Sequence record: PP337211
DNA from: Escherichia phage ERS-1
Strand: one strand, 5' to 3'
DNA: 64,000 nucleotides
The notes below the pieces were generated by a model. It was not told the DNA's origin. It did not search any database and saw only the letters and a program-made list of their open reading frames with translations. Positions 3,618-63,515 of this stretch are shown here, piece by piece. Each line of letters opens with the position of its first letter. The stretch's first letter is position 1. The position numbers and the translations under genes were made by a program.

Positions 3618-3619
3618 AA

Positions 3620-4419: not shown

Positions 4420-4446
4420 TGGTGTTTAATCCTATGCATGATTTCT

Positions 4447-4677: not shown

Positions 4678-4780
4678 TTTTTTTTTTTTTTTAGGTGCTG
4701 TCGATTCTGTTTGTAGTCGTCTGTTTAACCTTAGCAATACTAACTGAACCAAGTACAAAACAGTCAATTGCTAAGGTTAA
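4678..4780 (+). repeat. J-unit copy 1: T15 + aggtgctgtcgattctgtttgtagtcgtctg + perfect 14-bp palindrome arms (ttaaccttagcaat / attgctaaggttaa) around a 28-nt loop
   Basis: Directly read; ~85% identical by eye to the unit at 25997-26098; arms identical in both copies while the loops differ. Confidence 0.8.
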
Positions 4781-4857
4781 GTCAATTGCGTAGTGAAGTA
4801 AGAAAGTTGAAAAAATCAGTTTACATTGACGATGATTTTGATTACAATACTTCTCAA
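4781..4857 (+). repeat. perfect inverted copy of 2731-2807 (internal fragment of the T4-like ORF 2686..2961)
   Basis: 77/77 nt identical to the reverse complement of 2731-2807 by manual comparison. Confidence 0.85.
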
Positions 4858-4922
4858 CCAGTTTAAGTTTAAATTAATCTTTTGAGGTTTGTCGGAACAA
4901 TTTATATTAAACTGGTTCTTTT
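4858..4922 (+). other. hairpin (ccagttta ... taaactgg) followed by ttcttttt; terminator-like but with a 41-nt loop
   Basis: 8-bp inverted repeat 4858-4865 / 4907-4914 and downstream T-run. Confidence 0.3.
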
Positions 4923-4927
4923 TAAAC

Positions 4928-4971
4928 AGGTGCTGTCGATTCCGTTTGTAGTCGTCTGTTTAACCTTAGCA
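4928..4971 (+). repeat. left 31-bp inverted repeat of block A (aggtgctgtcgattccgtttgtagtcgtctg) plus ttaaccttagca half-site
   Basis: 30/31 identical to 4693-4723 and to the reverse complement of 25689-25719. Confidence 0.8.
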
Positions 4972-5002
4972 TATGTCTAATGTCGAAGCCACACACCACC
5001 GC

Positions 5003-9800: not shown

Positions 9801-10503
9801 GGCTGCCCGGGCCTTCCCGGACGGCTGGCCGCGAAGTGAAATGGCGGAGATCGCTTGGACGGGTCAAGGTTGGCTTCGAGGTGATGATCGAAGAAGCGCG
9901 TGGCCACCACCCGCCGCCGGAGGTGTCCGGCGCCTGGGAGAACTTTGGCGGCCCGTTCGAGTGGCCCGGGGTCCAACCTACCAGGAGCCTCTGAGGACGG
10001 CCCGAAGTCGGAGGCCGTCCCTTCCCAGGATGCCCCCATGAGTGAGCACGCTGTAAGCGACGAAGCGGGAGCTGGAGGGGGCGGGGATCGCCTACACGGT
10101 GGAGCTGGCCGGAGAGGTCAGGAGGCCGCTTCGCCGTGAGGGGGAAAGCCCCGATGGTGACGTGCTCGCGGACTTCCTCCACGTCGCGTGGCCCTCGGTC
10201 GCTCGCCTTCGCGTCTGGTGGAAGACCGCCGCGCGCTGGAATTGACCTGAACCGCTTTACTTCTTCGGACTCTATCACTTCTTTGCCAGTTTGAGAAATG
10301 AACTGGTCCGGCCAGGTCGCGATTCGAGATTGGAAAGGAGCTGACCCTTAAATTAGGAAGAAGCCTTCCGCTGGTGCGGCTTCCCGATCCCGCGCGGTGG
10401 GGGTCCTGGTAAGTTGGGCGAGGACTCGCTGCGCGAAGCCCGTTGCGATTCGAGTTTGAAGTCGGTTCGCCTTCGGGCTATGCGTGGACGCTGACGAGGT
10501 TGT

Positions 10504-10758
10504 GTGACCGCCCGCTGGGCTGCTCCGCTCGCCTTCGCCGTCCTGCTGCTCTGGGGCCTGGCGGGGGTCTTTGCGGACTATCCTGGACCGCCCGGAGGTT
10601 TGTATCAGCTACCTGACCCGGGAGTGTGTGCGCGTGGTGAACGCGGACGGCTCCCCCGGGATCGTGTGGAGCCCTCCCGGACCGCTATGAGCGAGTGTGG
10701 GTGGAGAAGATTCTGTTTCAACCCTGAGAAAGGAGTTGCGCTACGTCTTTTTGGGTAG
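10504..10758 (+). CDS. secreted or lipoprotein-like hypothetical protein (signal-peptide-like N-terminus)
   Basis: GTG start after GACGAGG; MTARWAAPLAFAVLLLWGLAGVFADYPGPPGG looks like a signal peptide with AxA-type cleavage site. Confidence 0.35.
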   Translation: MTARWAAPLAFAVLLLWGLAGVFADYPGPPGGLYQLPDPGVCARGERGRLPRDRVEPSRTAMSECGWRRFCFNPEKGVALRLFG

Positions 10759-16968: not shown

Positions 16969-19900
16969 GAATCGACTTGAAGGATGGAATTCCCTTCCCC
17001 CCTTGCGGACCGCGAAGTGGCCCGGATCGCGGAGGAGGCGGCGACACACCGCCCGGGAGCCGGCGACTGTGACCTGTGTGGCGAATGGAGCGGGAGGCTG
17101 GTGGAGGAGTCTGTGCGCCCTGTCGGACCGCCCGGGCTTTGCCGGTGAATCGAAGAAGTTGTATGAGGGCTCTACTTCTTGCAGGCCCCCCGCCACTCTC
17201 CTTCGTTGCAGGTACCGGCCTGAAAATGGAGAACGGCGATGACCTGGATTTCCGCCTCCAACCCGACACCCGCGCCACTGCCCCGCTTCGTGGCCGGTTT
17301 CACTGTCCTCGCCTCTGGCGGTAGCCCTCCGCGACCCTCGGCTACGCCTTCAGCCGCTAGAGCGTGGTTCCTGGCCTGGTCCGGCGACTCTGCATGGCAT
17401 GCTGGAGGATGTACCGTGAAGGACGTGTACTGGAACCTGGCCCACTACCCCCGTCTGGAAGGCTCGGGTGCCCCCGCCCTCGCCCTCCGAAGTTCCTGGC
17501 GTCATCCCCGACCGTCGCCCGAATTGAAGCCCTGGGTGGAGTTCCGCGCCCCGAAGGCTGCGCCGGTGGTGAAGGCGGGAGCGCTTCTGCCAGGGGCGCC
17601 GGGTGCCCGCCCCGCGCCCGGGCTGGCCAGTCCTGATGGAGCTGGCAAGCCCTGGTCCGCCGCTGCTCCATGGTCCAGCCCCGCGAAAGTCCGGTCGGCG
17701 TAGGAAGGACGGAACCGATCCTCGCCGGCGAGCGCCTGGGCTCGCCGCGGGCCTTCGACCACCACCCGGGTTGAAGGAGCCCGCGTGTATCTGGAAGGAT
17801 GAGCCGCCGCTGGAGGGAAAGGCCCGAGGAAGATGGAAGCGAGTACCAGAAGCGGGAGGGCTCCGGCCCTCCCCCCCGCGGGTCGAAAAAAGTTGTCTGC
17901 TGGGCTGACCTTCTTCGGGTTGGGTCACTTTTTGTTAGGCCGTAGAAATGGAGAACTGAAATCAGCCGACTCCCGCCCAGGTCGCTGCCCGCGAACTGAT
18001 CGCAGGCTGGGGCTCGCCTCGCTGGGCGATGTCCGGGTTGTCAAGCCGCTGACCCTCCCGGCCGGAGTACCTCCGCGGCCCGCTCCTTCGCCGGTGACCG
18101 CGCGATCCGCCGGATCGGTGCCGGTCCTCCGCGGGACGTCCCCCTGGCAGCTGATCGGCTTCGGACCTCGCGGAGGTCGCCGGGCCCTCTGGAAGTCGGC
18201 TGCCGTTGACCGGGAGGGCCTGGCTCTCCCCCTCCCGGAGAAGGAGCCCCTTGTGAACCGGTGGCCGCCTTCCCCACCCCCTCCCCTCGTCCCCACTCCT
18301 GTTCATCGGAGTCGGGGAGCTGGGGCTGCTCTTCACCCTCCGCGAGACGGAGCTGAAGGCCGTCCCGGGTCCTGGCCCACGGACGCGGTGGTGAATGGCG
18401 TGTATCGGGGTCCTCCGAGGTCCGTGCTCCCGTGAAGAACCTGAGCCGGGACCGACGAAGCCTTCGAGAAGGCCCGGAAGCCTCTGCAGCGTATGGGCCG
18501 AGCCGGTGACCTCCCGCGACTCCCTGCGCGAGGAAATGAACGCGATTCACCGCGTGACGCTGCGGAGCTGGAGCGCCGGGAGCGCGAGCGGAAGGAGCGC
18601 GAGGACCGCCTGGGCCGCGGAACGGGCCGCGGAGGAGGAGGAGAAGCGCCTGTACCTTCCTGGGCTGGAAGTTTGCCTTCGGACCTACGCGTGGCGAGTT
18701 CCCAGGCCCCGCGGGCTGGCCTCCGCCGGTCGATCCAGCCTCCGGACTTCGAGGAAGGTGGCCTGATGCGCCTGACCGCCCGTGAGGTCGCCCGCCGGGT
18801 CCCTGTCCTCGCCCGCCGAAGCCGAAGCCCGACCTGTACGTGGGCGAGCCGAGAGTGCATCACCTTCGACGTGACCGTGGTGCGCCGTACCCTTGCGCCC
18901 GTGACGCCTGGAACGGCTACGGTATCGAGACGGTCCAGGCGTTGCGATGATCGACCGCGCGACCGGGGCCTGCCTCGTGTCCAAGTCCGGGGCCTTCTAC
19001 GCGGAGGAAGGCGAGGAGCTGAAGATCAAGGCCACCGTGAAGGAGCACGCGGAGCACCGCGGCCAGGCCCAGACCGTTGTCCAGCGGGTCGCGGTGCTGG
19101 AGGACTACCGGATGCGCCGGGAACCTCTCAGCTCGCGGTTGTTCGGAGGGCGAGCTGTACGCCGCCTGCACCAGGACCCCCTCACCGGGGCTCTTACGCA
19201 GTGGCCTTTGCCGGAGCCCTCGGGGAGGCCCGGCCGTCGCCCTCGTTGACTGGACTCGCTGAAGTGGACGGGTCACCTGCCCGGGCTTACCGCGTGGGTG
19301 ATTAAGCTTCGCGCTTGGCGGACGCCCTCGTGCGATCCTTCGGAGCTGACCGGGCGTTCCGCGCGTCGGGCGATGAGTTCGCCGTTATGGGTGATAGCCG
19401 TGAACGTCTGCCCGGGCTCGCTTCTCCGCGCGAGGGTCCGGGTTTCTGCTTCGGACGGGGATCGGAGGCGGCGGAGGCGGACGGCGACCTGGCGCGTCGA
19501 GGGGCGGAGGGGGAGCGGTCCGGCCTTCGGGGCCGCGCGAGGGCTCCTCGACCGCCTTGGGGTCGATCATCGACCTCCGGGGGGCTTTACTTCTTCGGAG
19601 GCCCCCCGTCACACTTCTTTGTCGGGCGGTCCGGACCCGGAGAACGGCTGCCGGGGCGGCTGGGCATTTACTGTCTCCCCTGTCCAGGCCACGGACCTGC
19701 GCCTCCAAAGTTCTCCCGACCTTCTTTCGGGCGTGACTTCCTCCGGGTCCAAACGGCCCTGGACCGCCTCCTTAGATGGCGGAGGAGTAGGACGGTGCGC
19801 ACTGGTTCATGTACAAGCTGTCCAACGGTGCGACTGACCTGGCCCCGGCGATCACCGACCGGAAGCTGCGACTGACCGTGGACACCAACGGCTACGGGCG

Positions 19901-22597: not shown

Positions 22598-22700
22598 CTA
22601 AGGTAAGTAAGTTAAGTAAGTTAAGTATCTATCTATCTATCTATCTATAAAGGGCTGTTTTATATGGCCTTTTTGCCCGCTTGACTTTTTACTTTTTCGG
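22598..22700 (+). promoter_or_regulatory. island 1: AAGGTAAGTAAGTTAAGTAAGTTAAG (stops in all three frames) + (TATC)6 microsatellite + TATAAA + TTGACT + T-rich run
   Basis: Directly read; AT-rich intergenic module between the 22490 stop and the SD+GTG start at 22927; homologous inverted copy at 63420-63515. Confidence 0.7.
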
Positions 22701-22926
22701 ACGTGGAAGTGAAGCGCGACCCCTCGAACCTAAGCGGAGGACGCCGCGTGCCTGCTTGGGTCTGTTGCCCGTCGCTCCCGCGCCTCCCCCGCGGGCGAGC
22801 GCGACCCGCCCTTGGCGAACGCAGGCTTCGCCAGACTCGCGGCGAGGATGTCCTTGGGCGTGAGGCCGGGACGGATCGCCGCGTGATGCGCGATTGACGG
22901 GCGGTGCTGCCCAAGGGGGAGGTGAT

Positions 22927-24000
22927 GTGCCCATTGAGAAACTGAAGCCGAAGCCGATGGTGCCCTTGCCCTTGGATGGAAGCAGTACCTGGAGTTGTTC
23001 CGCACGTCCCGACCTGGGTGGGTGGAAGTACCGTGCGCGGAGGCGTGGGCGTCTCCGGCTCCGCCGTTCCACTATGCCGTTGAAGAATGACCCGGAGTTT
23101 GCCCTGGCTCTGCAGGACGCCCGCCAAGCGTGGATTGATGAGATCCTGTTGCGCGGCCCTGAAGCGGGCGCGGGACGGCGCGGCAGCGCCCGATCGGTCG
23201 GGGAAGTTCAAGGACGAAATTATTGGATGAGCGGGTGTACTGTGATTCGCTGATGGCCTTGACGCTCCGCGCCCGCCGTGCGGAGTTCGGGAGGACGGGA
23301 GGACGTGGCCTGTATCACTGCCCTCGGCCCGGTGGGCGCCGATCGTCCCGGGCCCCGGCGTCGACCGGACGACTGGGAATTGTTTGGGACCTCGCCCGCG
23401 GGACCGTGGGCCGTCCGACCGGGAGGGCGATGTTCGCCTGGTCCCAAGCGGGCAGGCGGTTGCCATCGCCGCCCGCCCGGACTACCCGATCGAGCGGCGC
23501 GAGGCGGAGCCCGGCGAGCTGCGGGCACCACGTGGACCCGGAGACGGGAAGGAGTCGGAGGCGACCTGGTGCGGGTACGGGTTGCAGCTCGCCTTCCTCG
23601 GCGTCCCGATCTTCGAGGTGCTGTATGAGGGGACGCGCGGCCCGGGCAAGACCGACTGCCGATGGACTTCCTCCAGCACGTGGGGAAGGGCTACGGTTGG
23701 AGCGGCGGGGTCCCCGTTCCGTCTGGCAGGGACCCCCGCTGTCGGACGTGATCAGACACAAAACCAACAAGTGGTTCAAGCGTTTCTTCCCGGCTAAGTA
23801 CAGGCAAGGTGGGTTGGCGACCTTCCCGGCACGGCGAGGAGCTGCTGCTGTGTCGGCGGTCGCCGGAGGATTATTGGAACTACCCACGGCCACGTGCCCG
23901 TGGATTGGCTGGGAAGAACTCTTGGGCTGGGCCTGACAGCGCCACCGTTGCGACGTCCTGCCGCCGCTCCCAAGCCGGGGATGCCCCGCCGCGACCCGGG
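22927..24000 (+). pseudogene. P-loop NTPase-containing coding region (copy 1), candidate packaging/terminase-like ATPase, frame-disrupted
   Basis: GGGGGAGGTG RBS then GTG 22927; Walker A GTRGPGKTD at 23630-23656; further protein-like segments in shifting frames (MPLKNDPEFALALQDARQAWIDEILL; DFLQHVGKGYGW; SDVIRHKTNKWFKRFFPAKYRQGG). Confidence 0.35.
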
Positions 24001-25688
24001 CGACCGGCCCCACGGCCCCGCCCCTGGCTGGGTCAGGCCCGCTCCCGCCTCCCCCGTTGCGCGGTCGGGTGATCCTGGACGCGATGCGAGACGGCGAGCG
24101 CGAACCGCCCCGGGTCGCCTTCCCGGTTCCTTTCCCATGAGAACCGGGTTGCTCCTCGCTGACCCGGAGGGCCTGGTATTCGAGCCGCGGCCCGGAACCC
24201 CTCCGACTCGCCGCCTGGCTCCACGGCTCCTGCAGGTTGTTTGCGGGAGGATGTTGTACGAGGCTTGCACCGCGGGACGCACCGCGGCGCCCTCCGTCCC
24301 GCTGTCGGTGATCCCGAAGCGGTGGAAGATCGACCTGCGGCTTCCACCGGGCCGGAGCCCTTTGCCGTCCTGTGGTGGGCGGAGTCGAATGGGAGCCGTT
24401 CGAGCGGAATGGCCGCGTGTACGGAAGGTGCGGGGGCGATCTGTACCTGATCCTGTAGCGGGTACGGCTGGAACGGGAACGCGAGCAGGGCGTCCTGCGG
24501 CTCGCCTCGGAGGTCGCCCAGTGGGTGAAGGACCGGGAGGAGGATTGGGCGCTGGAAGGTCGGGTCAGCCCTGGCCCCCGCGACCTTCTCCTCACGTGGA
24601 GGTATGGGGCCTGGATTGCTGTGGAGGCGGAGAGAGGGTGTGCGCCTGGACGCCCGCGGGAGGCTGGGCTCGCGGGTGGGCTGGGAGGGGTTGGCTGTCG
24701 GAGGGCGCTGCCTCCGGCGGCGGGGACCGCGCCAGGTCCCTGGGCTGTTCGGTTTTTTCGACCCGTGCTGGTGTCGTCCAGACGGTCCCGCGCTGCCCCG
24801 CGATGAGGTGTACCTGGGATGACGTGAAGGCGGAGGCGGAGGACCGGTTGGTGACGCGACCGCTACCGCGTGCGGGGTAAGCTGCGTGGTGCGGTGGTGG
24901 CCCGCAGAGGCTCGGCCGGGTCCTCGCCTTCGGGCGAGAATCCGCGAACCTGGAGAACCGACGGCCGGCGAGACGGCAGCCCTGCCGACCTGCGGGGCGT
25001 ATTAACCGCGCTCCCGCGCTGGCCCACGCTCCAGACGCCGCCTGGGCGGGACCGAAGGGCGCGCGAGGCGGGCGAGACGTACCTACCCCGCCCTCGGAGG
25101 AGACGGCAGGGTGGGCTATCGGGAGCGCCTGGCCTCCGCCGCTCCTCCTCGGCGGTTGAACCTGGGCGCCTGGACCTGCCCTGCAGCGGAGCCCTTTGCC
25201 AGCCGATCAAGCCGGCCAGGACGTGCCCGGAGGCGATCCAGGAGATGATCCTGCCTGACGTGGACCTCCTGGGGCTGCCCACGCGTTCGCCCGTCCTGTG
25301 GTTCCGCCAGCCTATCCGGTGAGGCCCTGGCCTCCTCGTCCAGACCGCCTCGCCCGGCCCCGCGGAGGATGGCCTACCCGGACCTGGCGGATGACCGCCG
25401 GGAGGGCCTGCGCCCTGACTGGGTGATGATCCAAGCCGGAGGCGCCCGCTGTTGGCCCGGTCGGAGGTGATCAAATGGGGCCCGAGTCCTCTGCGTGCTG
25501 CTGTCCAAGTTACGAGGCGGAGGCAGGACGGCTTCGCGCAGGCTTGGGAGCGCTGTCCGCGTCCTGGAGCTGGGCCTTGTCCCGGCTCTGGCAGCCGGTG
25601 AGAAGTTGGTGGTCCCGCAAGGAGGAGTGGGTGCTGGCGGATGAGCGGGCCATGGGGCTGAACCACGTCCCTGTGGTTGCCTTTACGC

Positions 25689-25719
25689 CAGACGACTACA
25701 AACGGAATCTACAGCACCT
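25689..25719 (-). repeat. right 31-bp inverted repeat of block A (reverse complement reads aggtgctgtagattccgtttgtagtcgtctg)
   Basis: 30/31 match to 4928-4958 in inverted orientation. Confidence 0.8.
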
Positions 25720-25725
25720 GAGTAT

Positions 25726-25771
25726 GTATTGCTAAGGTTAGAGGGAAACACGATAGAATCCAACAGCACCT
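25726..25771 (-). repeat. partial J-unit, variant b, inverted (aggtgctgt-tggattctatcgtgtttccctc-taaccttagcaatac on the minus strand)
   Basis: Shares the aggtgctgt head and taaccttagcaatac tail with the J-units; middle resembles the 26008-26040 variant. Confidence 0.7.
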
Positions 25772-25996
25772 AAAAAGGTTCAACTTTTTACTAAATAATA
25801 AATGTTGTAGTATCTTCTTAAAACGAAAAATTTAATTTGCTTTAAAACCTTCCCAATTTTTTTTGCCTTTTTTTAACATACGTCAGAACATGGAAGAATG
25901 GTGGCCGTTTTTTACACTGTGAAGAAACAATTTTGAACTTTTAAATGACTTCCATTTATATTGTTTTAATTTCCTTTTTTCCCGTTTGTTGTTAAT
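25772..25996. other. AT-rich spacer without a convincing ORF, phage-like (T-even-like) composition, T-runs
   Basis: Sharp GC drop between two GC-rich blocks; only very short ORFs; ends in a T11 run leading into J-unit 2. Confidence 0.4.
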
Positions 25997-26098
25997 TTTT
26001 TTTTTTAGGTGCTGTTCCGGATTTATCGTGTTTCCTGATTAACCTTAGCAATACGTAACTGAACGAAGTACATAAAAACACCAATTGCTAAGGTTAAA
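25997..26098 (+). repeat. J-unit copy 2: T11 + aggtgctgt + variant spacer + 14-bp palindrome arms around a 32-nt loop
   Basis: Same architecture and arm sequence as 4678-4780. Confidence 0.8.
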
Positions 26099-26099
26099 A

Positions 26100-27216
26100 G
26101 GTTACACAAACCCTGGACAAGCAGCACCCTCCCTTTGCGGTGTTCTCCGGCTCCGCCTTGTCCTTTGAGAGCGGAGGGGTGTCGCTTGTTGATGCAGCGG
26201 GCGATGGCGAACATGGACCAGAGGTGCGGGTGGTCCGCGAGGGCTGACGGATGCTTCTCGTCCGGTCCTGGTCCCACCCTTCCGGTTGGCTCCTGGAAGA
26301 TGTTGGGTACTGCCTGTTCCAGACCGGGTCCGCGGTCGGGCCGGGGCTTCCCGGCCTTGCGGTCCGGTAGATGTCGCGCCGGGCCTTCAAGGCGGCGACG
26401 TCGTCGACGCGCGGGGTGGTCGGTGCTGGGTCCTGGTCGGGCCCTCCGATGACGGCCTTGATGTCCTTCAGGGCCGTCTCCCTGTGGATGTCGCGGACCG
26501 TCTCGCCGTCCGCCAGGGCCTCCCGCGGACCTGGGCGATGGCGCGGTGCTTGTTGGTCCTTCCCTGGTCCTCCTCGACGGGCTTCCCGCCGTCGCGCTCC
26601 TGGATGTGCTTTGGCTTCCAGCGGCGTGTCCTGAAGGCCGGGTCGCCGCCGTTCGCCTTCGACCGCCACCCTGCGTTGGTACCTGTAGATGGTGCTGATG
26701 GCCGCCCTCAAACCTTACCGCCTTCACGTCCGGGTCCCGCCCAACCAGCTCCGCGACGGCCTTGGCGGCGGCTTGGGTCTTGATCCGGTCTGGGCCGGCG
26801 GTGGTCGCTCCGGCGGCGGCGGTGTAGTCCCCGATGATGGCGATGCCGTCCGGGGCGTGTTGCCGGGATCGGCTTGTGGTCCGGGGACGATGACGTTGAT
26901 GACGCGGGCGGATCGCGGGCCAGGCTGCGCGGGGGTGTGCTCTGCCGGAGCCGTATGCCCTGCCCGTCGATGTACTTCGGTTGGTTTTCCAGTTTGGTTG
27001 AAAACGGCGGAGCCGGAGCCCCCGCCTGGGGTTGCTGTTGGACCCTGCGCGATCGGATGATCTTGCGCTCGCCGCCGTCCTCCTCCGGCGGGGCTGGTTT
27101 CCCGACCTCTGAGTCTGGGCGAGCGGCCTTCGCCGCCCCAGGTTCCGAACCGCGGGCTCGGCTCGTCGTCGTCCGCGCGGTGGAGACCTGGCCGGTGGGG
27201 GGCGGCTTCCCCTCAC
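26100..27216 (-). pseudogene. hypothetical protein, frame-disrupted
   Basis: Protein-like segments in two minus frames (DGIAIIGDYTAAAGATTAGPDRIKTQAAAKAVAELVGRDPDVKAV; EALADGETVRDIHRETALKDIKAVIGGPDQDPAPTTPRVDDVAALKARRDIYRTARPG). Confidence 0.3.
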
Positions 27217-27521
27217 CTCCTGGAGGGCTGGCCCGTCGGTCCGGGTGAAGGTTCGGGACGCGCTGGCCGTGGCGGCCCCGCGGCGATCATTTCACGCCTT
27301 CCAAAGCCAGTGCCGGTTCGCCGGTTCCGGGCTTCCCGCGGCGGTCCAGGCGTGTCGTCGCGTAGGTCGTTGCCGCGCTCCGTCGCCGGTTCGGTACCTG
27401 CCGGCGGGCTTCGACCCGGCACGGCTCGCGATGGTCTTTCCGGGCTCCGGCCTGGTTCTCCGCGGGCTGTCGGCGAAGGCTTTGGTGCGCCCCGGGCTGA
27501 ACCGCTTTTGGAGGTGTTCGA

Positions 27522-28655
27522 TCATTGCTGGAGCCCTGCTGTAGCCCGCTTCCCGAATTTTGCGATTGCGTGGTCGTTGCCGACCGCGGCCTGGCGCTCG
27601 AAGCTGTGGCGGATGTCGTCGTGGGTGACGATCCCCGGGATTACCGGATTGACCTGATGGAGGTGTACATGCCCGACGCGCGCTCGCGATTTCGTCGGGA
27701 TGGTCCTGAAGGCTGATGGCCCCGGAGGCTCGTGCCGTTGTGGTCGTTGCCGGTGTTCGGTGACTTCTGGGCGTAGCTGTAGGGGTTCCGCTTCGGAGGT
27801 CGATGGCCGGATGGGGTAGCAGACGGCCGGGAAGAAGACTGGGCCGGGAGTTGGCGAAGGCTTCCGCCCCCGCCTGGGTGTTATGGGGCGCTTTGAAACG
27901 GTGAAGGGGTCCGTGAAGCTGGAGAAGCAGCCCGCGGCGGAGGTCCGGACTTCGAGAGGCATTTTGCGGACCTGCTCGCCGTAGTTCACCGGGACGCTGA
28001 TGAGGCCGGTGCCGCGGTAGCCCCGGAACCCGCTGTCGACGTAGAAGGCGCAACCCACTGTAGCCCCATAAGGCTCCGTCAGGATCGCCTCGCTGCAGGG
28101 GCGGGCGCGGGAGCCTCGCTTGTCGTTGTGCTTGTCCTGGCACCTGCCCTGAAGGGGCTTGGCGTTCGGGATGCGGATGTGCGGGAGGTAGGTGACGACC
28201 CTTTGAAGCCGGTAGGCCCAGCCCTTCACCTCCTTCTTGTCGTCTCTCCTTCGCGTTGCGGACCGTCCCCCCTGCCTTGCCGGAACTTCGCGCGCTGGCG
28301 CCGGTCCTGCACCCTTCTCCCCCATCGGGCCCGGAACTCCCGTTGGTTCGGTCCGGCGGCGAAATACTTGTAAGCCTCCTGAGCGGCTTCGCCGGTGCCT
28401 TCCTGCCCTTGCCTGCGTGGTCCGGTCATTCTCCTTCAACTGTGAAAAAAGTCTTGAGCGCCTTACCCGGAAGAAGTAAGCGGCGTTAATCGGCCCCGGC
28501 TCGCCACGTTGTTTCCGGGAGGTCCCCTGGCCTTCGCTCCTCCGAATGCCGGCGACCGGCGAACTGCCGGAACCGCGCGGCGACCCTTCCGCGTCATATC
28601 CTCCAGGTTGTCCTTTTGGGACCCGAGGGAACAAATGCTCGGGGTTGACGCACAA
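27522..28655 (-). pseudogene. hypothetical protein with possible metal-dependent hydrolase motifs
   Basis: Long protein-like stretch (KGWAYRLQRVVTYLPHIRIPNAKPLQGRCQDKHNDKRG...) and GHVHLH; family not identified. Confidence 0.25.
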
Positions 28656-30700
28656 CGGTCGGTCGCAGCGATGAACTTACGTTATCGCCGTCGGGATGGA
28701 CCGTCGAACCTGGCCGAAGGATAGCCGATGAGTGCCGTCTTAGTCTCATGTTGGCGTGCTGCTTATCATTGACTGGGAGCCGTTGGTTGGTCCCGTCTCC
28801 GGTCTTGATAGTGGGCGTCGAAGTAGGTGAGCCGGTCCGTCGATTACCCCATGTTCGGAATGATGGGGCGTGGGATGGACGAAGCCCGTTGAGCGGTTGC
28901 TGCGCTTTAGCTTTTGGGTTGGTAACGGGTTGGGGGAACGGGGCGGAGGCGTCCCGGGCTGCGTCCGCGTACCCGTAGCCCTCGTCGTATTACCGGTCAC
29001 CCGGTTGCCGGGTGCCTGGCCGCGGCCTTCCCCATGTACTCCCGGGTGGCGTCCTGGCTCTGCAGTATCCTTGTGGAGGATGACGTTGTAGTTGCGGGCC
29101 CGCCCCCTCCAAGCCCTCTTCAGTGCCCGGCGGCGACCGTCCCCGAGCTGAGACTGATGACCGGGGTCCCGGAGTCCGGGAGGTGCGGGGCGGTGCGGAC
29201 GGCCTCCGCGGGCGTTCTCCGTGATCGACTCCGGGAGCTTCGGGTGTTCGGCTGTAGCTGTCGTGGGAGTTCTCCCGTGCTTCTTGGCCGGACGGGGATC
29301 GCGGAGCGGCCCGCCGGCATGTCCAGGTCCGCCCCGAGCTGGCGAGCGCGCCCGCCGCCGGACGCGCGGGGCGTCCGCGGCCCCGTCGCGCTTGAAGCGG
29401 GGCCAGTAGTCCACGGCCTGTTTCCCAGCTGCTGGCAGGCGACCGCCCGGCCCGCCTTCGAGCGGTACGTGTCCGGCTGCCGATGGTGGTTCTTGTGGTC
29501 TCGATATGGGCGAGGCCCCGCCAATCTCGCTGAAGGACGGCACCGGGAGCGGGTGCTCTCCCCGCTTCAGGATCGGACCCCGTTGAGCGGGCGTTTGACC
29601 GGGCGTCGTTGACGACGTTGCTGCCTGGCGTGGTCGAGGAAGGCCCGTGCGGCGGAGGGCGGCCTGCCCGGTTCGAGCCCGCCGTCGATTTCCCGGATGT
29701 TGTTCCGTGGGTAGTGGCCGTTCGACGGTGGGGATTTTCCATTTACACAGCACCGTTCTACCTCTGCATGTTCGGCGGGTGGTTGCCCGGGTGGGCGGGG
29801 CGAGGTCCGCGAACCGCTGGTTTGCAGTCCGCCACCCGGACGCTTGATCGCCTCGCGCTTGGGCTTCGCGTTCTCCGGGTACTGTGAGCCTCGCGCTGCT
29901 CCGCGTTGCGGCCTTCTCCGGGTCCTTGAAGGTTAAGGCGGCGTCGTGCCGAAGTCGGCCGCACTTCACCGGTTCGACCTGTCCGCGATCTTGAAGCCGA
30001 TCCGGTCGGACCGAAGCCGTCGTGCTCCTGGGCGCGGGCGGAGACGGTGCGGAAGGGCAGGCGCTCCTCCGTCGCCCGGGCTCTCCCGTGCCCCGCCTCC
30101 GGGCGGTCGCCGTAGCGGGCCTGGAGGGAGGTTGCGGAGTCACGGTATCGGCCTGTAGCGGCGGTGCTCGCGTCCCCGGGGGCCTGTGCTCCCCCGGCGG
30201 GCGTCTCCTCCTCGTCGCGGGCCGCGACCTTCCCGGTGCGGCAACTCCTCGCCCTCCTCCACCAGGAAGGAGGCCACCCGGCGTGGTAGCTCCAGAATAA
30301 CCGAGGAGCCCGGGAGCTGCGGCACGGAGAAGTCCCCCGCCTCCTCCGCCCGAACCAGGGCCGTGTACACGGGTCCAGATCGCCGGTGGTGATCAGGTGT
30401 CGGCCGGGGTCGTCTCGATGTCCGGTCGCGGGGCAAGTTCTGCTCGGCTTTTTCTGGGTATGCGTGACTGATTTTCCCGGCTCAGGTCTTTGCGATGTCC
30501 GGTTCAGAGAATTGGCGACGAAGGAAGGCTCCGGCGGGACTTTTCGTCACGTGATACGGGAATGGACTTGTCTGGCGCCGCCGTCGCCGTCCTCCGTGAT
30601 CCCTGGTGAACCCGGCAGGAGCTTGAAGGGCTCCGTTCTGTATCCCCGCTCCGCCGGGCACCTGCCCGGCGGGGGTGCGGTGTGCGCTCCGAGGCTCCCG

Positions 30701-31363
30701 TTACCCTTGCCCTTGTCGGCCTGGCGGGTCTGGCGGGCGTCTGCCTTCGGCGGACTTTGCGGCTCGTGGGCCGGGATCGCGTGGCCTTCCGGGACCTCCG
30801 ACGTGGAACCGCTCGTGCCGTCCGCGTCGAAGGCGGAGCGGACCCCGCAGCCCTTTGGTCGCTTGTCCTGCTGAAGCCGGAGTGGGCGGTGGCTTCGGTC
30901 CTGGGCTTGTTGCTGCCCTTGGGCTTCGACCTGTTCGGCCGGTCCTCCTGTTTGGGCGGGACCCCCTACGTCGGGAGACGGCCGCTCCGAGCCCTCGCGG
31001 CGGGGGATCGGGGCGTGGCCCGGGCGGCAGGTTGGCGCCGCGCGGGCGCGGGCCTTCCTCCTCCGCGGACTTCGGAGCCTTCTGGGCCTTCGGAGGCGAC
31101 GGGCGGGGGTTGCGGTTTGTTTGCGGTTTCGACCTTCTGGGTTCGGCCTGCTGCTGCTCGGCACTTCCGGGCGCGCTTCGGCGGCGCCAGGCTTCTGTGT
31201 GGGGGTATGGCGGTGGTCTTGTCGGCAAGCGGTGGACGTTCGGGACGGACTTGCCGTTGCGGAAGGTGCCGATGACTTCGTCGGGACCTGCTCGACCGGG
31301 CCGGGCTGGACCTCGCTGGGAGGCTTCGGTGTAGGCGACGTTGTTGAAGTTGATGGTGTTCAT
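30701..31363 (-). CDS. hypothetical protein with strong RBS (AGAAGGAG, 6 nt, ATG at 31363); frame decays after ~50 codons
   Basis: RC of 31361-31378 gives AGAAGGAGCCTACC-ATG; N-terminus MNTINFNNVAYTEASQ... Confidence 0.4.
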   Translation of the reverse strand: MNTINFNNVAYTEASQRGPARPGRAGPDEVIGTFRNGKSVPNVHRLPTRPPPYPHTEAWRRRSAPGSAEQQQAEPRRSKPQTNRNPRPSPPKAQKAPKSAEEEGPRPRGANLPPGPRPDPPPRGLGAAVSRRRGSRPNRRTGRTGRSPRAATSPGPKPPPTPASAGQATKGLRGPLRLRRGRHERFHVGGPGRPRDPGPRAAKSAEGRRPPDPPGRQGQG

Positions 31364-31380
31364 GGTAGGCTCCTTCTGGG

Positions 31381-31460
31381 GTTGAGGTGCGATCTTGTTC
31401 GACCGTGAGAGAAATCTTAACCCTGCCCCCGAAGAAGTAAAGTGGTTTGACTAAACTTTT
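31381..31460 (-). promoter_or_regulatory. lower-GC intergenic island with sigma70-like elements (TTTACT-17-TAAGAT on the minus strand) and a TTGACT/T-run motif resembling the islands
   Basis: Read on the minus strand upstream of the 31363 start. Confidence 0.3.
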
Positions 31461-31949
31461 TCAGTTTCCCGTCCGAAGGCCAGGTGCCCGTTGGACGGCG
31501 GAGGGCGAACCGTTGGCGCCTCTTCCCAGAAGGCCCGGGCGGCGTCTCGTGCCCTGTTCTCCTGTACCAATGGTTGCGCCCCGAGGTGTGCGGGAACCCA
31601 GCGACCTCGAAGCCCCAGCGATGTTGGGTTGCACTGGTGGAAGTCCAGGTGCTGGGCCGGGTAGCCGAAAGCCTCTGCGACGTTCCGCCCAACGAGGATG
31701 ACGTGCCGACCGCCCAACAAGGGCTTCCCTCGCGGCTGCGGGCCCCGCGTCCCGGGCGGGCCGCTGTCGTCCCGCTTCCAGCGCCCCGGGAAGGTGTGGA
31801 GCAGGTGGTGCGGTCGAAGGTCTTGAGGTAGTCCTTGGGCGATAGGCCTGCCTGCTCGCCCGACGCCCTCCCGCGGAGGACCGCGGAGGGGAGCCAGGGG
31901 CCGGTCCGGGTCCGCGTTAGGTCCTGGCGCTGGCCGATCTGGGCTTGTT

Positions 31950-33400
31950 CGTTCTTTCGGGCACATTTCTCTGGGTGACGTTCTGTTTGAGGTCCGCTCC
32001 GGCACCGGGATGGCCCTTTGAGGGCGTCCCGGTTGGAGTACCCGGTGGTGATCTGGGTGATCACCGCCTTTGGCTTGTCTTTGCACCTCCGTCCGGTGGC
32101 CGGTCGATGCGGTCGGCTTGCCGGCTCCTCCGCCGGGCGTCCGCTTCGGCTCGCCGCCGTCATCCTTCACCCGAGGATGCCCACCGCTTCCCGCCAGCGG
32201 AAGGTCGTGCAGCCCTTCGCCCCGCCTTCCCGGCGCCGCTGTCTCGAAGTCCTCCCGCTGATGTCGGAGCGCCGCTCGCTCGCCGCGGAATCGACCCGCT
32301 GGGCGGCGACGGTCGGGCGGCGACGTGTTCCTGGACGGTGACGCGGGAGCGCCTTGCCGCGGACCCGACGCGGTCCGCAGTCCTCCCTCCCCCGCGCCGC
32401 GGGCCGCTGAACTCGATTGCGGTGCGGTCGAAGCTGTAGGCGAGTCGCTTCGGTCCCGGAGCTGACGTTGTCGGCCCAGGCTGACGGTCCCGGTCGGGGC
32501 GATGGAAGTGAGGTGGGAGTTGCGGATGCCGTATTTGGCGATGGCGTCCTGCGTCCTCGCGGAGGGTCTTGATGAACTGGCCCTGAAGGTACTTGTCCTT
32601 GTCGAACTTCGGGAAGGAGCCCTTGACCTTGGCGATGTGGGCGCTGGCCGTAGGGCTGCGCCTGCGTGTTGGTACCCTTGCCTCGAAGGCGAGGAAGGCG
32701 GGCGAACCGTACGATGGCCTGGGCTTCGGCAGCGTTGGCCAGGCCGGTGATCCCGAGGCCCTTGCGGCGCTTGTCCTTGGCTTCCTGCTTCTGCGCGGCG
32801 GTAGATCGCGCGATCGTACCGTTGTGCCATTGCGTGGACCTTCCTGCGGGATGTCCTCGCGGAACTGGTCCCGTCGAAGGCGTAGTGGCCCGCCCCGTCC
32901 TCTAAGATGTACTTTACCTGTTGAAGGAGCCGGTGGTGCCGTAGGGCGGTAGGGTTGTCGTCCGTGGGGTTCGTGGCGGCGATGGTCTTGGGTTGGGCGT
33001 CGTTTGCGGTTGATCGCGTCGATGAACTTACGTCCCCGGCTCTGCCGGGTTGCCGGCTCGTGGCGATTGCGTCCTGGCGCCCGGGCGTCCGCTTCGCGGT
33101 AGGTCCGGCCCTCGAAGGTGAGGGGAACGGCTCGCCGGAGGCGACGCCGGCGCTGTCGGTGATGGCGACGGAGACGTTGAAGCCTGTTGCTTCTGGTCCG
33201 CTGAAGGGGATGATGGCCGCCGCTTCTCGGGGCTCCCTCCGGGAGTCGGTCCTCGAGGTCCGAGCGGCTGAACGTCCTTCCCGGGTCGCTTGGCGTGACG
33301 AACTCCTCGATGTCGGGATGGTCCGCGCATCACCCCCCCCGGGCTCCGCGGCGATGGCCGGCAGGAGGCGACGCACTGGGATCGCGTCGAAGATGTGCAT
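31950..33400 (-). pseudogene. ribonucleotide reductase large subunit (class I or II, NrdA/E/J-like), frame-disrupted
   Basis: Minus-strand motif AKYGIRNSHLTSIAPTGTVSLG at 32474-32533, then ADNVSSGTEA and RLAYSFDRTAIEF in shifted frames, resembling the conserved YGIRNSLL..APT...EP...Y.RR...GEF region of class I R1 proteins as I remember it; gene bounds uncertain. Confidence 0.45.
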
Positions 33401-33799
33401 GAAGCTGATGGGGCCGGAGGAGTGGGACTGGAGCTTGCGGATCAGGTCGCCGCGAGGACGGAGGGTGCTGAAGTCAGGCCGATCCCGCCGCCCTTCCCGG
33501 TTGTGGCCTGCGGCTTCCGCGGCCCGGATTGACGGAGCCTTCGCCGTCCGCTTGAAGCTGTCGTTGATCGTCCCGGAGACGTAGCCTGTCCGTATGGCGT
33601 GACCTGGCGAGTGGAGCCCGTCGCGGACCGGATGCGGCCCGCCGGGAGGAAGTGGTACGCCTGCGAGGGCGTCCCGGAAGTCCGCGAAGTGCTGGTCATT
33701 GTCCTTCAGGGCCGCGGCGATCCGGTTCGTGGCCTCGCGGAAGGACTCGCCGCTGCCGCGGTACTTCTGGGCGTGTAGTTCTGTGAGTAGGGTACTTGA

Positions 33800-35650
33800 G
33801 GACCTGTCGGTGAGTCTCCTCGAAGGGTTGAGGGCTTTCTATCGTGTTGTTGCTCCTGTTCTTGGGCTAGGCGGTGAACGAGGTCGATGCGTTCCGCGGC
33901 CCGGGTAATGGCGGTGTACAACCCTTTCCTTCCGGCTCCTTCCCGTACCCCGTCCGGGGTGGCAGGACGTTGTTCCTTTGGGAGCCCTGCGACTTGTGGA
34001 CGGTGAGCGCACCTGCCCTGTCGAACTCCTCCGCGCCTTCCGCTCCCAGACTTCGGCTTGTTGCCGTGGAAGTAGTGGGGGTGGGCGCTGACTTCGACCT
34101 TCGCGCCGTCCTCGCCTTCGATGTCCTTGATGGAGTCGCTGTTGAAGATCGTGTCACGGCGGACCTTCCGGCTGGCCGTCGAGCAGGCCCGCCCTTCGTG
34201 GTCGTGAGGGGCCTTTGCCGTCGCCTTCCTGGGTGGGCGCGTCCGCCCGAGGAGTTCCCGGGACGTCGTCGCTCGTGATTCTCGTGGCGTTCCTGCCGGG
34301 TCAGGAGCTGGTCGGTGGACAGTACCATGTCCCGGAGTTCTTCGCGTGGTGGCGGCCATAGGAATCACGCGGCTGGCACCGTAGTCGCCGGGGGCGGAGC
34401 ACGCGGCCCTCGCGGACCTCCTTGGAGGTCCGGTCATCGGGTTGTCCTGGGCCTGGCGGTGAATCTCCGCGAGGACGTCGGGCTTGTCTTGAAGCAAGGG
34501 CGCTGCCGGGCGGGAGCTGTCCGGGATCGCCCGGGTGAGGACCGGTGCCGAAGTGAGGCCCTCCCCCCCGCCTGCCCGGACGGCGGAAGAATTCGCTTGC
34601 CGAGCGCGGCCCTCCAACCTGGGCGACTCCGCGTTGAGCTGGAAGGTCGGGCGGGCGAGGTTGATCTGCTCCGCCTTGATCGCCGGATCGACTTCTCCGG
34701 TCAGGGTTTCCGGGACGGGCTTGCGAGTGAGTAGCCGCGCCCGCTCCGCTTGGAGTTCCCTGGCGCTGCTGCGACTTGTCCTTGGGCGTGTAGATGAAGC
34801 TGCGAATGGTAATTCTCCGTTGGTCGCCCCGGACTTCGTGAGGACGTGAGCGGCCTTGCCGGTGTAGGCGGCGAAGGTGCCGGGACCTTTGACGGTCGCG
34901 GCGAGGTGTTTGGCCGGGTGGCCTGCCGGTTCCGGCGTACCCGGCGAGCTGGAAGGCAGGGCTTGTCCCGGGTCTTGACGTTGCCTGTCCTGGTTGGCGC
35001 GGTCTGCTGTTGGCGTACTCCGCGATGACCGTTCTCCGTTTCTGATAAGAAGGGGGGCCCTTGAAGGCCCCTGAAGGCACGCCGAGGGGGCGGGCCGTCC
35101 GGGCTGGTCCTCCCGGGTATCGGGTTGGCTGCCGCCGCCTGCGCCTGGGCTTCTCGTCGCGGCAGCCGGAGCTGGCGACGGGCGGCGCGGGCCTTGCCCT
35201 GCTGATCGTCGATTCGATGTCGGCGGACTGGAACAGCGGGTCATCGGGCAGGAGGCGAGCCGTGGGCGTTCTCTCGCCGTCGAAGGCGATGGTGTCCTGT
35301 TGAAGAAGGGCCCTTGTCGTCTGTCGGCTCGAGGCGGTAGCGGTGGGCGGCTGCGGAGCCGGGATGCGGCGACCGTCCCGGAATCCTGGATGGTCTTGGC
35401 CTTGTACCCTCTGCCCTTGTACTTCTTGATCTTCGTGGAGCCGAAGGCCCGACCGCTTCCCAGGCGTTGCCGCTGTTGCGCGTGCCGGCCCCGGTGGTGT
35501 AAGGTTCCGATTGGCTCGTTGCCGTCCGGGGGTGCTGCAGCTGCCGTGCTCGAGGACGCGGCCTTGGCGGTTCGCCGGGTCGCCGTCGACTCTGGGATGC
35601 CCGTTGCACCGCCGCCGCATCGCGGGGCTTCCACCACCGCACGTGCTGGG
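33800..35650 (-). pseudogene. RecD/TraA-like superfamily 1 DNA helicase, frame-disrupted
   Basis: Motif I LAGYAGTG (34926-34949), Ia FAAYTGKAAHVL (~34838-34870), V LTVHKSQGSQ (33975-34007), VI GLYTAITRA (33901-33921) in correct order and spacing but three different frames. Confidence 0.6.
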
Positions 35651-36640
35651 TGGTCGCCGGGACGAAGGCAATGCCCTTCTTGCCGTCCCAGACTTCGCCG
35701 GTCACCGGTGTTCGTGTACCCCGCCTGGCGGTGCTTGTCGTTCTCCTGGAGCTGCGGGCTGAGGGCCTGAAGAATCTGGAGGAACGGGATGCTGTAAGTT
35801 GTCGCTGGTCCGGCTTCTCGAAACCCGCGCCCAGCCGTGCTGTGCCCTGGCCTCGCCGCGGCGGTGTTGTCTTTGTCGCCAGCGGTGGTCTTGCTATCGG
35901 TCTTGGCCCGGCGGCGCTGGCTCCTTCGGTTCGATGTGAGCGGGGCCGATTGGGCCCCCGGCTCGAATAGCCCTGCCGTCTGCCGGTGTACCCGCCATCG
36001 CCGCGGGGCGGTTGTAGGAAGGCCCGGGCCCGCCTCCTTCTGGGTCGTCACTTGGACGCTGACCACGGACCCCGAAAGGTTCTGGGACTTCCTGCCTTCG
36101 CTGTGGCCTCGCCGGCACGAAAGTGGTAGGGTTGAAGGATGGACGCTGGCGTTTGTCGTCGCCCGAACTCGTCCGCGAGACGCTGGCGGTTCGCTGCCTT
36201 CCCGCCTCGCCCTTGCCAAGGCGACTGGCGACCCGGCGCTCGATCAATCGCGGGCGTGGCCGTGCTCGCTCAGCTCAGGCGAAGGCGAGCGGGGCCTTGG
36301 CCTTCGGATGCTGGCGCCATCGTCTGCGGAATCCTTGATCTTCGGCTGGCGGTGGTCTTGGAGCTGCGGTATGCCGATCTGGTCCTCAAGTTTGGTACCC
36401 GGCGCTCCGCGATGTCGCGGAGTTCTTCGCGGGCCTTGTTGAGCTGGGCTTCGAGGCTGCGACCTTCGACGGGCGGCCTGTTGTTTGGCCCGCTGAGCCA
36501 GTTGGCGTGGCTTGACTCCGGCGGCTCGAGGTCTGTCTGGACGCGTTTTCCTTAGGCGTGGTTCTCCGTTTCTTCGGCGAGGGTATTTGTATCGCTGAAG
36601 AAGTATAGCCGGTTGTTGCAAGAAGTAGAGGCCCAGGCGT

Positions 36641-38699: not shown

Positions 38700-38795
38700 T
38701 ATGAAGTGGAGAGGCAGTGGAAGCCCTGTGGGGCTGGGGGTTTATATATTCTTCTTCTTCTTCTTTAACTCACTCAACTTACTTACCTTAACCCC
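38700..38795 (-). promoter_or_regulatory. island 2 (inverted): GGTTAAGGTAAGTAAGTTGAGTGAGTTAA + (GAA)5 + TATATAAA on the minus strand
   Basis: Same motif grammar as islands 1 and 3 but a different microsatellite; flanks are not clearly homologous to those of islands 1 and 3. Confidence 0.65.
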
Positions 38796-63190: not shown

Positions 63191-63419
63191 TTGCGGTTCG
63201 CTCCCCCTTCGGCGTGTACTGTTCGTCGGTTGTGCTGCGTGGCCACCCGTCCCGGCCTCGGTCGGGCTTTCCCTCGCCGCGAGTATAGCGTGAGCTTGGG
63301 CAATAGCCAAGGGCGGGTCGCGCCCGCCCGCGGGGAGAGGTCGAGGAGCGTGTGGGCGGATTGCCGGCAGGCGCGCAGCGTCCTCCGCTTAGGTTCGAGG
63401 GCTGCGTTCCACTTTCGTC

Positions 63420-63515
63420 CGAAAAAAAAAAAGTCAAGCGGTAAAGGTTAAAAACCTGCCCTTTATATACAGACAGACAGATAGATACTTAACTCACTAA
63501 CTCACTTACCTTAAC
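63420..63515 (-). promoter_or_regulatory. island 3 (inverted copy of island 1): GTTAAGGTAAGTGAGTTAGTGAGTTAAG + (TATC)2(TGTC)3 + TATATAAA + TTGACT + T11 on the minus strand
   Basis: Reverse complement aligns base-for-base with 22560-22700, with substitutions and a different microsatellite composition. Confidence 0.7.

What the first reader, a model, noticed from the sequence alone, without database searches (positions are those of the whole stretch)
31361..31460. Compact promoter plus RBS module resembling the island motif
On the minus strand a TTTACT-17nt-TAAGAT pair and AGAAGGAG-6nt-ATG precede the protein-like N-terminus MNTINFNNVAYTEAS. The same stretch carries TTGACT plus a T-run, as in islands 1 and 3, suggesting the islands are variations on a recurring intergenic regulatory design.
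Basis: seen in the sequence. Interest (0 to 1): 0.35.

Follow-up and report, generated by a model that had tools for sequence, protein, structure and literature searches.

The report
Known Yuavirus phage promoter plus RBS
The flagged stretch is a real promoter and ribosome-binding site in front of a DNA-binding-protein gene of an M6/YuA-like Pseudomonas phage, one copy of a repeated phage-specific promoter that is already described, so it is ordinary; the surrounding window is an error-laden raw nanopore read.

Summary
It is 17 in every clean relative; the difference is a read error. Window 5042-63823 is a Yuavirus (Pseudomonas phage M6/YuA/Lydia group). The site lies between a UDG-like gene and the homolog of Lydia gp84 / M6 ORF049 / YuA gp08 (DUF3489), whose N-terminus MNxINFNNVAYTEAS is real.

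TTTACT belongs to a repeated motif, gcTTTACTTCTTCGG-N10-TATACTTCTTCA. It occurs about nine times per Yuavirus genome, always intergenic and co-directional with the genes. YuA's GenBank record annotates it as a "putative sigma70 promoter requiring phage-encoded cofactor". ONT-cappable-seq mapped a start site at the positional ortholog (YuA P008, TSS 7 nt after the -10). The M6-type copy has TAAGAT instead of TATACT.

A recurring intergenic design does exist, but the shared element is not TTGACT plus a T-run. TTGACT is not enriched, lies on the non-coding strand here, and two of its three T-run sites are one locus read twice.

The window itself is untrimmed, concatenated nanopore reads with barcodes. 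T is miscalled in about 80% of TG dinucleotides, consistent with 5-NedU hypermodification, and this breaks nearly all reading frames. Verdict: already known, low interest.

The parts
31461..31463 (-). TGA stop of the upstream UDG-like gene (homolog of Lydia gp83 / M6 ORF048). The 649-aa ORF ending at 31451 in the ORF list is an artefactual frame fusion.
   Evidence: Alignment to Lydia GGGACCTGAAAAAG; tblastn of Lydia gp83; ORF list
31453..31461 (-). A-tract AAAAAGTTT at about -55 to -47, UP-element-like.
   Evidence: AAAAAAGTT is conserved upstream of the -35 in gp84-homolog upstream regions, even in relatives with only 60% protein identity. The UP-element role is inferred.
31436..31441 (-). 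-35-like hexamer TTTACT, invariant in the family
31429..31435 (-). Conserved block TCTTCGG directly after the -35; a family-specific signature not expected in a sigma70 spacer
31414..31419 (-). -10-like hexamer TAAGAT, the M6-type variant of the family consensus TATACT. It keeps T-12, A-11 and T-7.
   Evidence: the same variant is conserved in L006-L010 and in the divergent L015
31406..31406 (-). Predicted transcription start (the A of TCTCTCA). This is 7 nt after the -10 in clean relatives and 8 nt in the window, which carries an inserted T.
   Evidence: By homology with the YuA P008 TSS at 7758, the A 7 nt after TATACT. Inferred for this site.
31364..31406 (-). 5' UTR, 43 nt in the window and 45 nt in Lydia, with no significant secondary structure
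   Evidence: z = 0; weak, one compensatory pair
31370..31377 (-). Shine-Dalgarno AGAAGGAG (AGAAAAGGAG in relatives), 6 nt before the ATG
30701..31363 (-). Gene for the homolog of Lydia gp84 / M6 ORF049 / YuA gp08 (DUF3489, annotated as DNA-binding protein). The start ATG at 31363-31361 is genuine; the frame is broken by read errors after codon 15.
10256..10268 (+). Family member upstream of the Lydia gp16 homolog (= YuA P010). The -10 is garbled by read errors.
17868..17958 (+). Family member upstream of the Lydia gp33 homolog, heavily garbled in the read
19586..19598 (+). Family member upstream of the Lydia gp35 homolog
22688..22700 (+). Partial family member TTTACTTTTTCGG with no -10, preceded by TTGACT. 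It lies in the long non-coding region before the small terminase gene (first copy).
63411..63437 (-). The same locus as 22681-22700, read a second time from the other strand (TTGACTTTTTTTTTTTCGG)
28468..28480 (-). Family member upstream of the radical-SAM gene (Lydia gp88; annotated repeat_region 10500-10527 in YuA), with -10 TAGACT
36595..36640 (-). Family member upstream of the Lydia gp78 homolog (= YuA P006). The -10 block TATACTTCTTCAG is intact; the -35 block is garbled.

Best explanation
The stretch is the promoter, 5' UTR and ribosome-binding site of the Yuavirus gene encoding a DUF3489 putative DNA-binding protein (Lydia gp84 / M6 ORF049 / YuA gp08). The promoter is one copy of the Yuavirus 'phage-specific' promoter repeat, gcTTTACTTCTTCGG-N10-TATACTTCTTCA.

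Its geometry is that of a host sigma70 promoter. The -35 is TTTACT, the spacer is 17 bp, and the -10 is TATACT (TAAGAT here). The start is an A 7 nt downstream of the -10. It also carries conserved blocks right after each hexamer, and in this copy an upstream A-tract.

The most likely mechanism is as follows. Host RNA polymerase holoenzyme initiates here during infection. It does so only with the help of a phage-encoded factor that recognises or compensates for the non-consensus, family-specific positions. This gives middle-phase expression of the DNA-metabolism and DNA-modification gene block. The mRNA then starts about 45 nt before the ATG and is translated from a strong AAGGAG Shine-Dalgarno sequence 6 nt upstream.

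Shown here: the sequence family, its enrichment, its strand and intergenic bias, and its conservation and positional orthology.

Shown by others for YuA: 5'-triphosphate start sites at five full-motif copies, including the ortholog, and lack of promoter-trap activity in uninfected cells.

Inferred: that the M6-type TAAGAT copy fires at the homologous A, the need for a cofactor at this copy, and the UP-element role of the A-tract.
For: 1. Identity of the window: 5042-63823 aligns to Pseudomonas phage Lydia/M6. The site aligns base for base with the gp83|gp84 intergenic region of Lydia.

2. In Lydia, hits to TTACTTCTTCGG with 0-1 mismatches are, with one exception (a 1-mismatch hit inside gp10), intergenic or at a gene end just upstream of the next gene. 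All but one (antisense, in the gp45|46 region) lie on the coding strand. The full-motif copies sit 55-105 nt before a start codon and are followed after 10 nt by TATACT-like hexamers.

3. Enrichment in the window: 6 hits against 0.87 expected, with 0 of 100 shuffles reaching 6.

4. In IMG/VR the full motif occurs in 31 stretches from about 22 contigs, up to 4 per contig and always on one strand.

5. Upstream regions of gp84 homologs down to 60% protein identity keep CCAC-TTTACT-TYTTCGS-N10/11-TATACT or TAAGAT, while the N10 and the flanks diverge.

6. The YuA GenBank record annotates 7722-7749, between RNR gp07 and gp08, as 'putative sigma70 promoter requiring phage-encoded cofactor'.

7. Putzeys et al. 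2024 (PMC10914365; supplementary Table S3 of bioRxiv 10.1101/2023.10.13.562163) map YuA P008 at TSS 7758 with exactly this motif. The TSS is the A 7 nt after TATACT and 48 nt before the gp08 ATG.

8. The Shine-Dalgarno sequence and ATG are conserved in all relatives.
Against: - No start-site data exist for an M6-type phage. This copy's -10 (TAAGAT) deviates from the family consensus.
- The hexamers match the sigma70 consensus at only 8 of 12 positions, and pairs of that quality are at chance frequency.
- The cofactor has never been identified. 'No activity' in a promoter trap could have other causes.
- The window's own copy has a 16-nt spacer and an extra T after the -10. I attribute both to read error but cannot prove it for this molecule.
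Confidence: 0.78

Rival explanations
1. An ordinary, constitutive host sigma70 promoter with an UP element that needs no phage factor.
For: The geometry is canonical: 17-bp spacer, -10 at -12 to -7 relative to the mapped YuA start, T-12/A-11/T-7 retained, and an A-tract at about -50.
Against: The match to consensus is only 8 of 12. The blocks TCTTCGG and TCTTCA outside the hexamers are conserved across distant relatives, which sigma70 recognition alone does not explain. Four family members, including the ortholog P008, gave no activity in the YuA promoter trap in uninfected cells.
Confidence: 0.12
2. The repeat is primarily something other than a promoter. It could be a binding site for a phage DNA-binding protein, or a recombination/module-boundary sequence. 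Transcription of gp84 would then come from upstream.
For: The motif contains a direct repeat of TACTTCTTC 23 bp apart. One metagenomic relative (L013) has a hybrid: M6-type sequence upstream of the -35 and Lydia-gp32-type sequence downstream of it. This suggests recombination within the repeat. YuA and M6 differ by an inserted gene pair exactly at this repeat.
Against: Primary 5' ends map 7-8 nt after the -10 block at five full-motif copies in YuA. A recombination role would be additional to promoter function, not an alternative to it.
Confidence: 0.06
3. One reading: a shared TTGACT plus T-run module defines the AT-rich islands, possibly acting as a plus-strand (antisense) promoter here.
For: TTGACT followed by T5 within 8 nt occurs at three places, against 0.12 expected.
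Against: Two of the three places are one locus read twice. TTGACT is not enriched. At 31447 it lies on the non-coding strand and no -10 follows at 16-18 nt (the sequence there is CGTCCG). AGTCAA is absent from non-M6-type relatives, which keep the promoter.
Confidence: 0.02
4. A chance match in an AT-rich pocket.
For: The hexamer pair alone is at chance frequency.
Against: The 13-mer is enriched, the site is orthologous to YuA P008, it is conserved across relatives, and start sites are mapped in YuA.
Confidence: 0.02

Closest known systems
YuA 'phage promoter' class. Sources: Ceyssens et al. 2008, J Bacteriol 190:1429, annotated in NC_010116 as 'putative sigma70 promoter requiring phage-encoded cofactor'; Putzeys et al. 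2024, Microlife, YuA P006/P008/P010/P012/P013.
   Same: The -35 block is identical over 13 of 13 positions (TTTACTTCTTCGG). The spacing is the same. The position is the same: directly upstream of the gp08/ORF049/gp84 gene. The 5' UTR start (CACGGTCGA) and the Shine-Dalgarno sequence are the same.
   Different: The -10 block is TAAGATTCTCTCA instead of TATACTTCTTTCA. A UDG-like gene pair is inserted upstream in M6-type genomes. No start site has been mapped for this variant.
T4 middle promoters (MotA/AsiA sigma appropriation)
   Same: Host sigma70 holoenzyme, a sigma70-type -10, and a phage-specific conserved upstream box. They are inactive without phage factors and drive DNA-metabolism genes.
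   Different: The upstream box here sits at the canonical -35 position with a 17-bp spacer and resembles TTGACA at 4 of 6 positions, unlike the MotA box at -30. No MotA or AsiA homolog was looked for or found. The comparison concerns mechanism only and rests on general knowledge.
Canonical sigma70 promoter with UP element
   Same: The hexamer positions relative to the mapped start, and the upstream A-tract.
   Different: The match to consensus is 8 of 12. There are additional conserved non-hexamer blocks. Family members are reported to lack activity in uninfected cells.
Alternative promoter motif of phage 14-1 (Putzeys 2024)
   Same: A second example of a Pseudomonas phage without its own RNA polymerase that carries a repeated non-host promoter motif, inactive in reporter assays.
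   Different: The sequence is unrelated (a CTGGG core near the TSS).

Membership tests
Yuavirus phage-specific promoter repeat | -35 block CTTTACTTCTTCGG | tested here: met
   31442-31429(-) is an exact match
Yuavirus phage-specific promoter repeat | -10 block TATACTTCTTCA placed 10 nt after the -35 block (17-bp hexamer spacer) | tested here: inconclusive
   TAAGATT(T)CTCTCA keeps T1, A2 and T6 and the TCxxTCA tail, but differs at 3 hexamer positions. The spacer is 16 in the window and 17 in all clean M6-type relatives.
Yuavirus phage-specific promoter repeat | Intergenic, co-directional with the genes, 55-105 nt before a start codon | tested here: met
   78 nt from TTTACT to the ATG, on the coding strand, between the gp83 and gp84 homologs
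Yuavirus phage-specific promoter repeat | Positional orthology with a mapped YuA promoter | tested here: met
   YuA P008 / repeat_region 7722-7749 lies directly upstream of gp08, the gp84 homolog
Yuavirus phage-specific promoter repeat | Primary 5' end 7 nt after the -10 during infection; silent in uninfected host | not testable with these tools
   Known only for YuA copies, from the literature
Consensus sigma70 promoter | At least 9 of 12 matches to TTGACA-16/18-TATAAT | tested here: not met
   8 of 12; not reported by the scan. Pairs of this quality are at chance frequency.
Intrinsic terminator / known RNA family | GC hairpin plus T-run, or an Rfam covariance-model hit | tested here: not met
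   No terminator-like site at 31364-31463. No Rfam hit in the whole window. UTR fold z = 0.

The most novel reading that the evidence does not exclude
The family's -35, TTTACT, is a TG-free version of TTGACA. Both changes remove a TG dinucleotide: TTG->TTT on the top strand and TGT->AGT on the bottom strand. Neither hexamer of the motif contains a TG on either strand. The read-error signature in this window indicates that thymidine hypermodification in this phage sits almost exclusively at 5'-TG-3'. If so, these promoters would stay free of 5-NedU in both recognition hexamers. Host-type phage promoters with TTGAC would carry it. The modification state of the -35 could therefore be part of what separates the promoter classes, or what makes a cofactor necessary. 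Separately, the repeat may serve as a recombination junction for gene-module exchange, as the L013 hybrid and the UDG gene-pair insertion at this exact site suggest.
Probability: 0.1. Interest if true: 0.55.

Novelty: already known. Interest (0 to 1): 0.15.

Why it matters
For the finding itself, little changes. It re-identifies a promoter repeat that is annotated in YuA and whose start sites have been mapped.

The practical value is that it assigns the M6-type TAAGAT variant to that family. It also predicts a start site that can be checked: window 31406(-), Lydia 56867.

The more useful outcome is a warning. This window is a raw chimeric nanopore read of hypermodified phage DNA. ORFs, spacer lengths, homopolymer lengths and 'repeated islands' read from it are therefore unreliable.

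Tried and rejected
- Generic sigma70/terminator scan. It did not report the site and found no terminator nearby. It is uninformative for this promoter class.
- TTGACT enrichment. None found.
- TTGACT plus T-run. The apparent enrichment collapses to two independent loci with different strand relationships.
- Rfam scan of the whole window. No hits.
- Structure in the 5' UTR. The single-sequence fold gives z = 0. The alignment fold of 8 orthologous UTRs gives a 4-bp stem with one compensatory change and about 0 kcal/mol. This is not convincing.
- The Ceyssens 2008 paper is not held. I therefore relied on the YuA GenBank annotation and on Putzeys 2024.
- The Lydia paper and the composting-phage paper say nothing about promoters.
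- I took the 649-aa and 220-aa ORFs of the window at face value at first. I rejected this after tblastn showed multi-frame hits at 40-50% identity despite 84% DNA identity.
- I did not search for the phage cofactor, such as sigma-binding proteins.

Full report
**1. What the window is**

The window has three parts.
- Positions 1-5000 are 33% GC and the rest is about 68% GC.
- Positions 29000-34000 match about 50 Pseudomonas Yuavirus genomes (M6, YuA relatives, Lydia) at about 84.5% identity.
- Against the full Lydia genome, window 5042-25688 equals Lydia 4591-26186 in forward orientation.
- Window 26189-63823 equals Lydia 61977-22663 in reverse complement.
- Lydia 22663-26186 is therefore present twice, inverted.

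The joints carry sequences I recognise from memory as Oxford Nanopore adapter and native barcodes NB02, NB04 and NB05, with their AAGGTTAA/CAGCACCT flanks. Window 1-4667 is a T4-like phage at 97% identity. The window is therefore a string of untrimmed raw nanopore reads, not a finished genome.

The Yuavirus parts are riddled with indels.
- The alignment has 7% gaps.
- Lydia proteins hit the window in several frames at 40-50% identity, although DNA identity is 82-84%.

The errors are strand-specific and context-specific.
- The affected base is always T on the window's minus strand.
- T followed by G is called correctly only 21-29% of the time. For TC the figure is 86-91% and for TA 74-85%.
- In the stretch present twice, T of TG is correct in 74% of positions in one copy and 17% in the other. 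The A of CA shows the mirror pattern.
- Only 59 of 3524 positions differ from Lydia in both copies in the same way, so the real phage is about 98% identical to Lydia.

This fits the 5-(2-aminoethyl)uridine that replaces about 30% of T in M6 (PMC5889632). It also fits the TG/TC preference inferred from restriction resistance, and the M6 kinase acting on TG (PMC6449724).

**2. The observation**

- TTTACT at 31441-31436
- TAAGAT at 31419-31414
- AGAAGGAG at 31377-31370
- 6 nt, then ATG at 31363
- MNTINFNNVAYTEAS

The spacer is 16 nt, not 17. All clean relatives have 17 (GGGGGCTGGGGT where the window has GGGGGC-AGGGT). They also have TAAGATTC (the window carries an extra T) and AGAAAAGGAG (the window lacks two A's). 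These three differences are of the read-error kind.

The N-terminus matches Lydia gp84 (MNAINFNNVAYTEASLSEL...). After codon 15 the window's frame is lost.

The upstream gene is the UDG-like gp83 homolog, ending at TGA 31463-31461. The 649-aa ORF in the mechanical ORF list is a frame fusion.

**3. Is it more than chance?**

The hexamer pair alone is not.
- It matches the sigma70 consensus at 8 of 12 positions and is missed by the promoter scan.
- Pairs of that quality occur 21 times, against 15.5 +/- 4.3 expected.
- TTGACT occurs 14 times, against 13.6 expected.

The extended sequence is. TTTACTTCTTCGG with up to 2 mismatches occurs 6 times, against 0.87 expected, and always on the phage coding strand.

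**4. What it is**

In the clean Lydia genome the motif gcTTTACTTCTTCGG-N10-TATACTTCTTCA precedes gp16, gp32, gp33, gp35, gp78, gp84 (the finding) and gp88. There are partial copies before gp46 and gp76. The seven full-motif copies are all on the coding strand, at or just past the end of the preceding gene, and 55-105 nt from the next start codon.

Evidence from YuA:
- The YuA GenBank record annotates the copy between RNR (gp07) and gp08, and the one before gp12, as 'putative sigma70 promoter requiring phage-encoded cofactor'.
- ONT-cappable-seq of YuA (Putzeys et al. 2024, PMC10914365) found nine 'phage promoters' sharing a motif (MEME E = 2.7e-26). Four of them had been reported by Ceyssens et al. 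2008 without detectable activity, which suggested a need for phage factors.
- Supplementary Table S3 lists them. P006, P008, P010, P012 and P013 carry exactly this motif.
- P008 (TSS 7758) lies 48 nt before the gp08 ATG. Its start is the A 7 nt after TATACT, which places the hexamers at canonical -35 and -10 positions.
- gp08 is the ortholog of the gene downstream of the finding.

Across 14 metagenomic relatives, down to 60% protein identity, the upstream region keeps these features while the N10 and the flanks vary:
- CCAC-TTTACT-T(C/T)TTCG(G/C)
- a 17-18-bp spacer
- TATACT or, in the M6 type including a divergent member (L015), TAAGAT
- the first bases of the UTR (CACGGTCGA)
- the Shine-Dalgarno sequence

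The full motif is confined to about 22 IMG/VR contigs, often several copies per contig on one strand.

**5. How it most likely works**

Host RNA polymerase with sigma70 initiates about 45 nt upstream of the ATG. In the window this is predicted at 31406 on the minus strand. It uses a weak -35/-10 pair at canonical spacing and is helped by a phage-encoded factor. That factor accounts for the conserved non-hexamer blocks and for the silence of these promoters in uninfected cells.

The A-tract at about -50 may add an UP-element contribution. A strong Shine-Dalgarno sequence 6 nt from the ATG drives translation of a DUF3489 protein.

The promoter function and cofactor dependence rest on YuA data for orthologous and paralogous copies. 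They are inferred for this TAAGAT variant. There is no terminator, Rfam family or convincing UTR structure.

**6.

A recurring intergenic design does exist, but TTGACT plus T-run is not it.
- At this site TTGACT is on the non-coding strand and is specific to M6-type phages.
- The T-run is the complement of the upstream A-tract.
- At 22681 and 63437 the strings lie on the coding strand, overlap the motif, and are one locus read twice.
- The biggest AT-rich island is adapter/barcode sequence plus a short T4-like read.

**7. Verdict**

This is a real promoter-plus-RBS module and a member of an already described Yuavirus promoter family. It was seen through a noisy read. Novelty: already known. 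Interest: low.

Noticed in passing
window 1-64000 (joints at about 4698-4970 and 25685-26121): The window is not a genome. It is a concatenation or chimera of untrimmed nanopore reads:
- a T4-like read (1-4667, 97% identical to Tequatrovirus genomes)
- a Yuavirus read (5042-25688)
- a roughly 250-nt insert with a short T4-like match
- a second Yuavirus read in the opposite orientation (26189-63823) that overlaps the first by 3.5 kb

ONT adapter and native barcodes NB02, NB04 and NB05 sit at the joints. I recognised the adapter and barcode sequences from memory.
   Followed up: yes
window 5042-25688 and 26189-63823: There are systematic basecalling failures at T of 5'-TG-3' on the read strand. 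T is called correctly in 21-29% of TG, against 86-91% of TC. In the region present twice, the errors mirror each other between the two strands. The T4-like read in the same window is 97% accurate. TG accounts for 36% of T on that strand, close to the roughly 30% of T replaced by 5-NedU in M6. This is a base-resolution signature that the hypermodification targets TG and not TC. It sharpens the TG/TC inference of Flodman et al. 2019.
   Followed up: partly
window 38740-38800 (+) and 63460-63520 (+); also 22600-22650 (+): A second repeated element sits on the phage non-coding strand in the two long non-coding regions (Lydia gp75|76 and gp45|46). It reads TATATA, then short tandem repeats, then TTAACTCACTNAACTTACTTACCTTAACCCCC. 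It resembles YuA P002, a minus-strand 'phage promoter' TSS at 612. It could be divergent or antisense promoters, or an origin or packaging region.
   Followed up: no
L013 (IMGVR_UViG_3300033986_000045), upstream of its gp84 homolog: This is a hybrid promoter. The sequence upstream of the -35 is M6-type (GAAAAAAGTTTAGTCAAACCAC). The sequence from the spacer onwards matches the Lydia gp32 promoter and UTR with one mismatch (GAGCCCCCGCTATACTTTCTTCACGTTCAACAAGAAC; Lydia has A at the ninth base). This suggests recombination between promoter copies. YuA and M6 differ by an inserted ORF047/UDG-like gene pair exactly at this repeat.
   Followed up: partly
window 31387-31406 (-) and orthologous 5' UTRs: The first roughly 12 nt of the predicted transcript (ACGGTCGAACAA) are conserved in gp84-homolog UTRs down to 60% protein identity. 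They can form a short 5'-terminal stem (GGTC/GACC), with one compensatory change in L017. The support is too weak to call it a structure.
   Followed up: partly
window 26189-31363 (-): Downstream of the promoter lies the thymidine-hypermodification gene block: amino acid:DNA transferase, PLP-dependent enzyme, radical SAM enzyme and a kinase. The radical-SAM gene has its own family promoter at 28480-28468. The promoter family therefore drives the genes that make the modification that corrupts this read.
   Followed up: no
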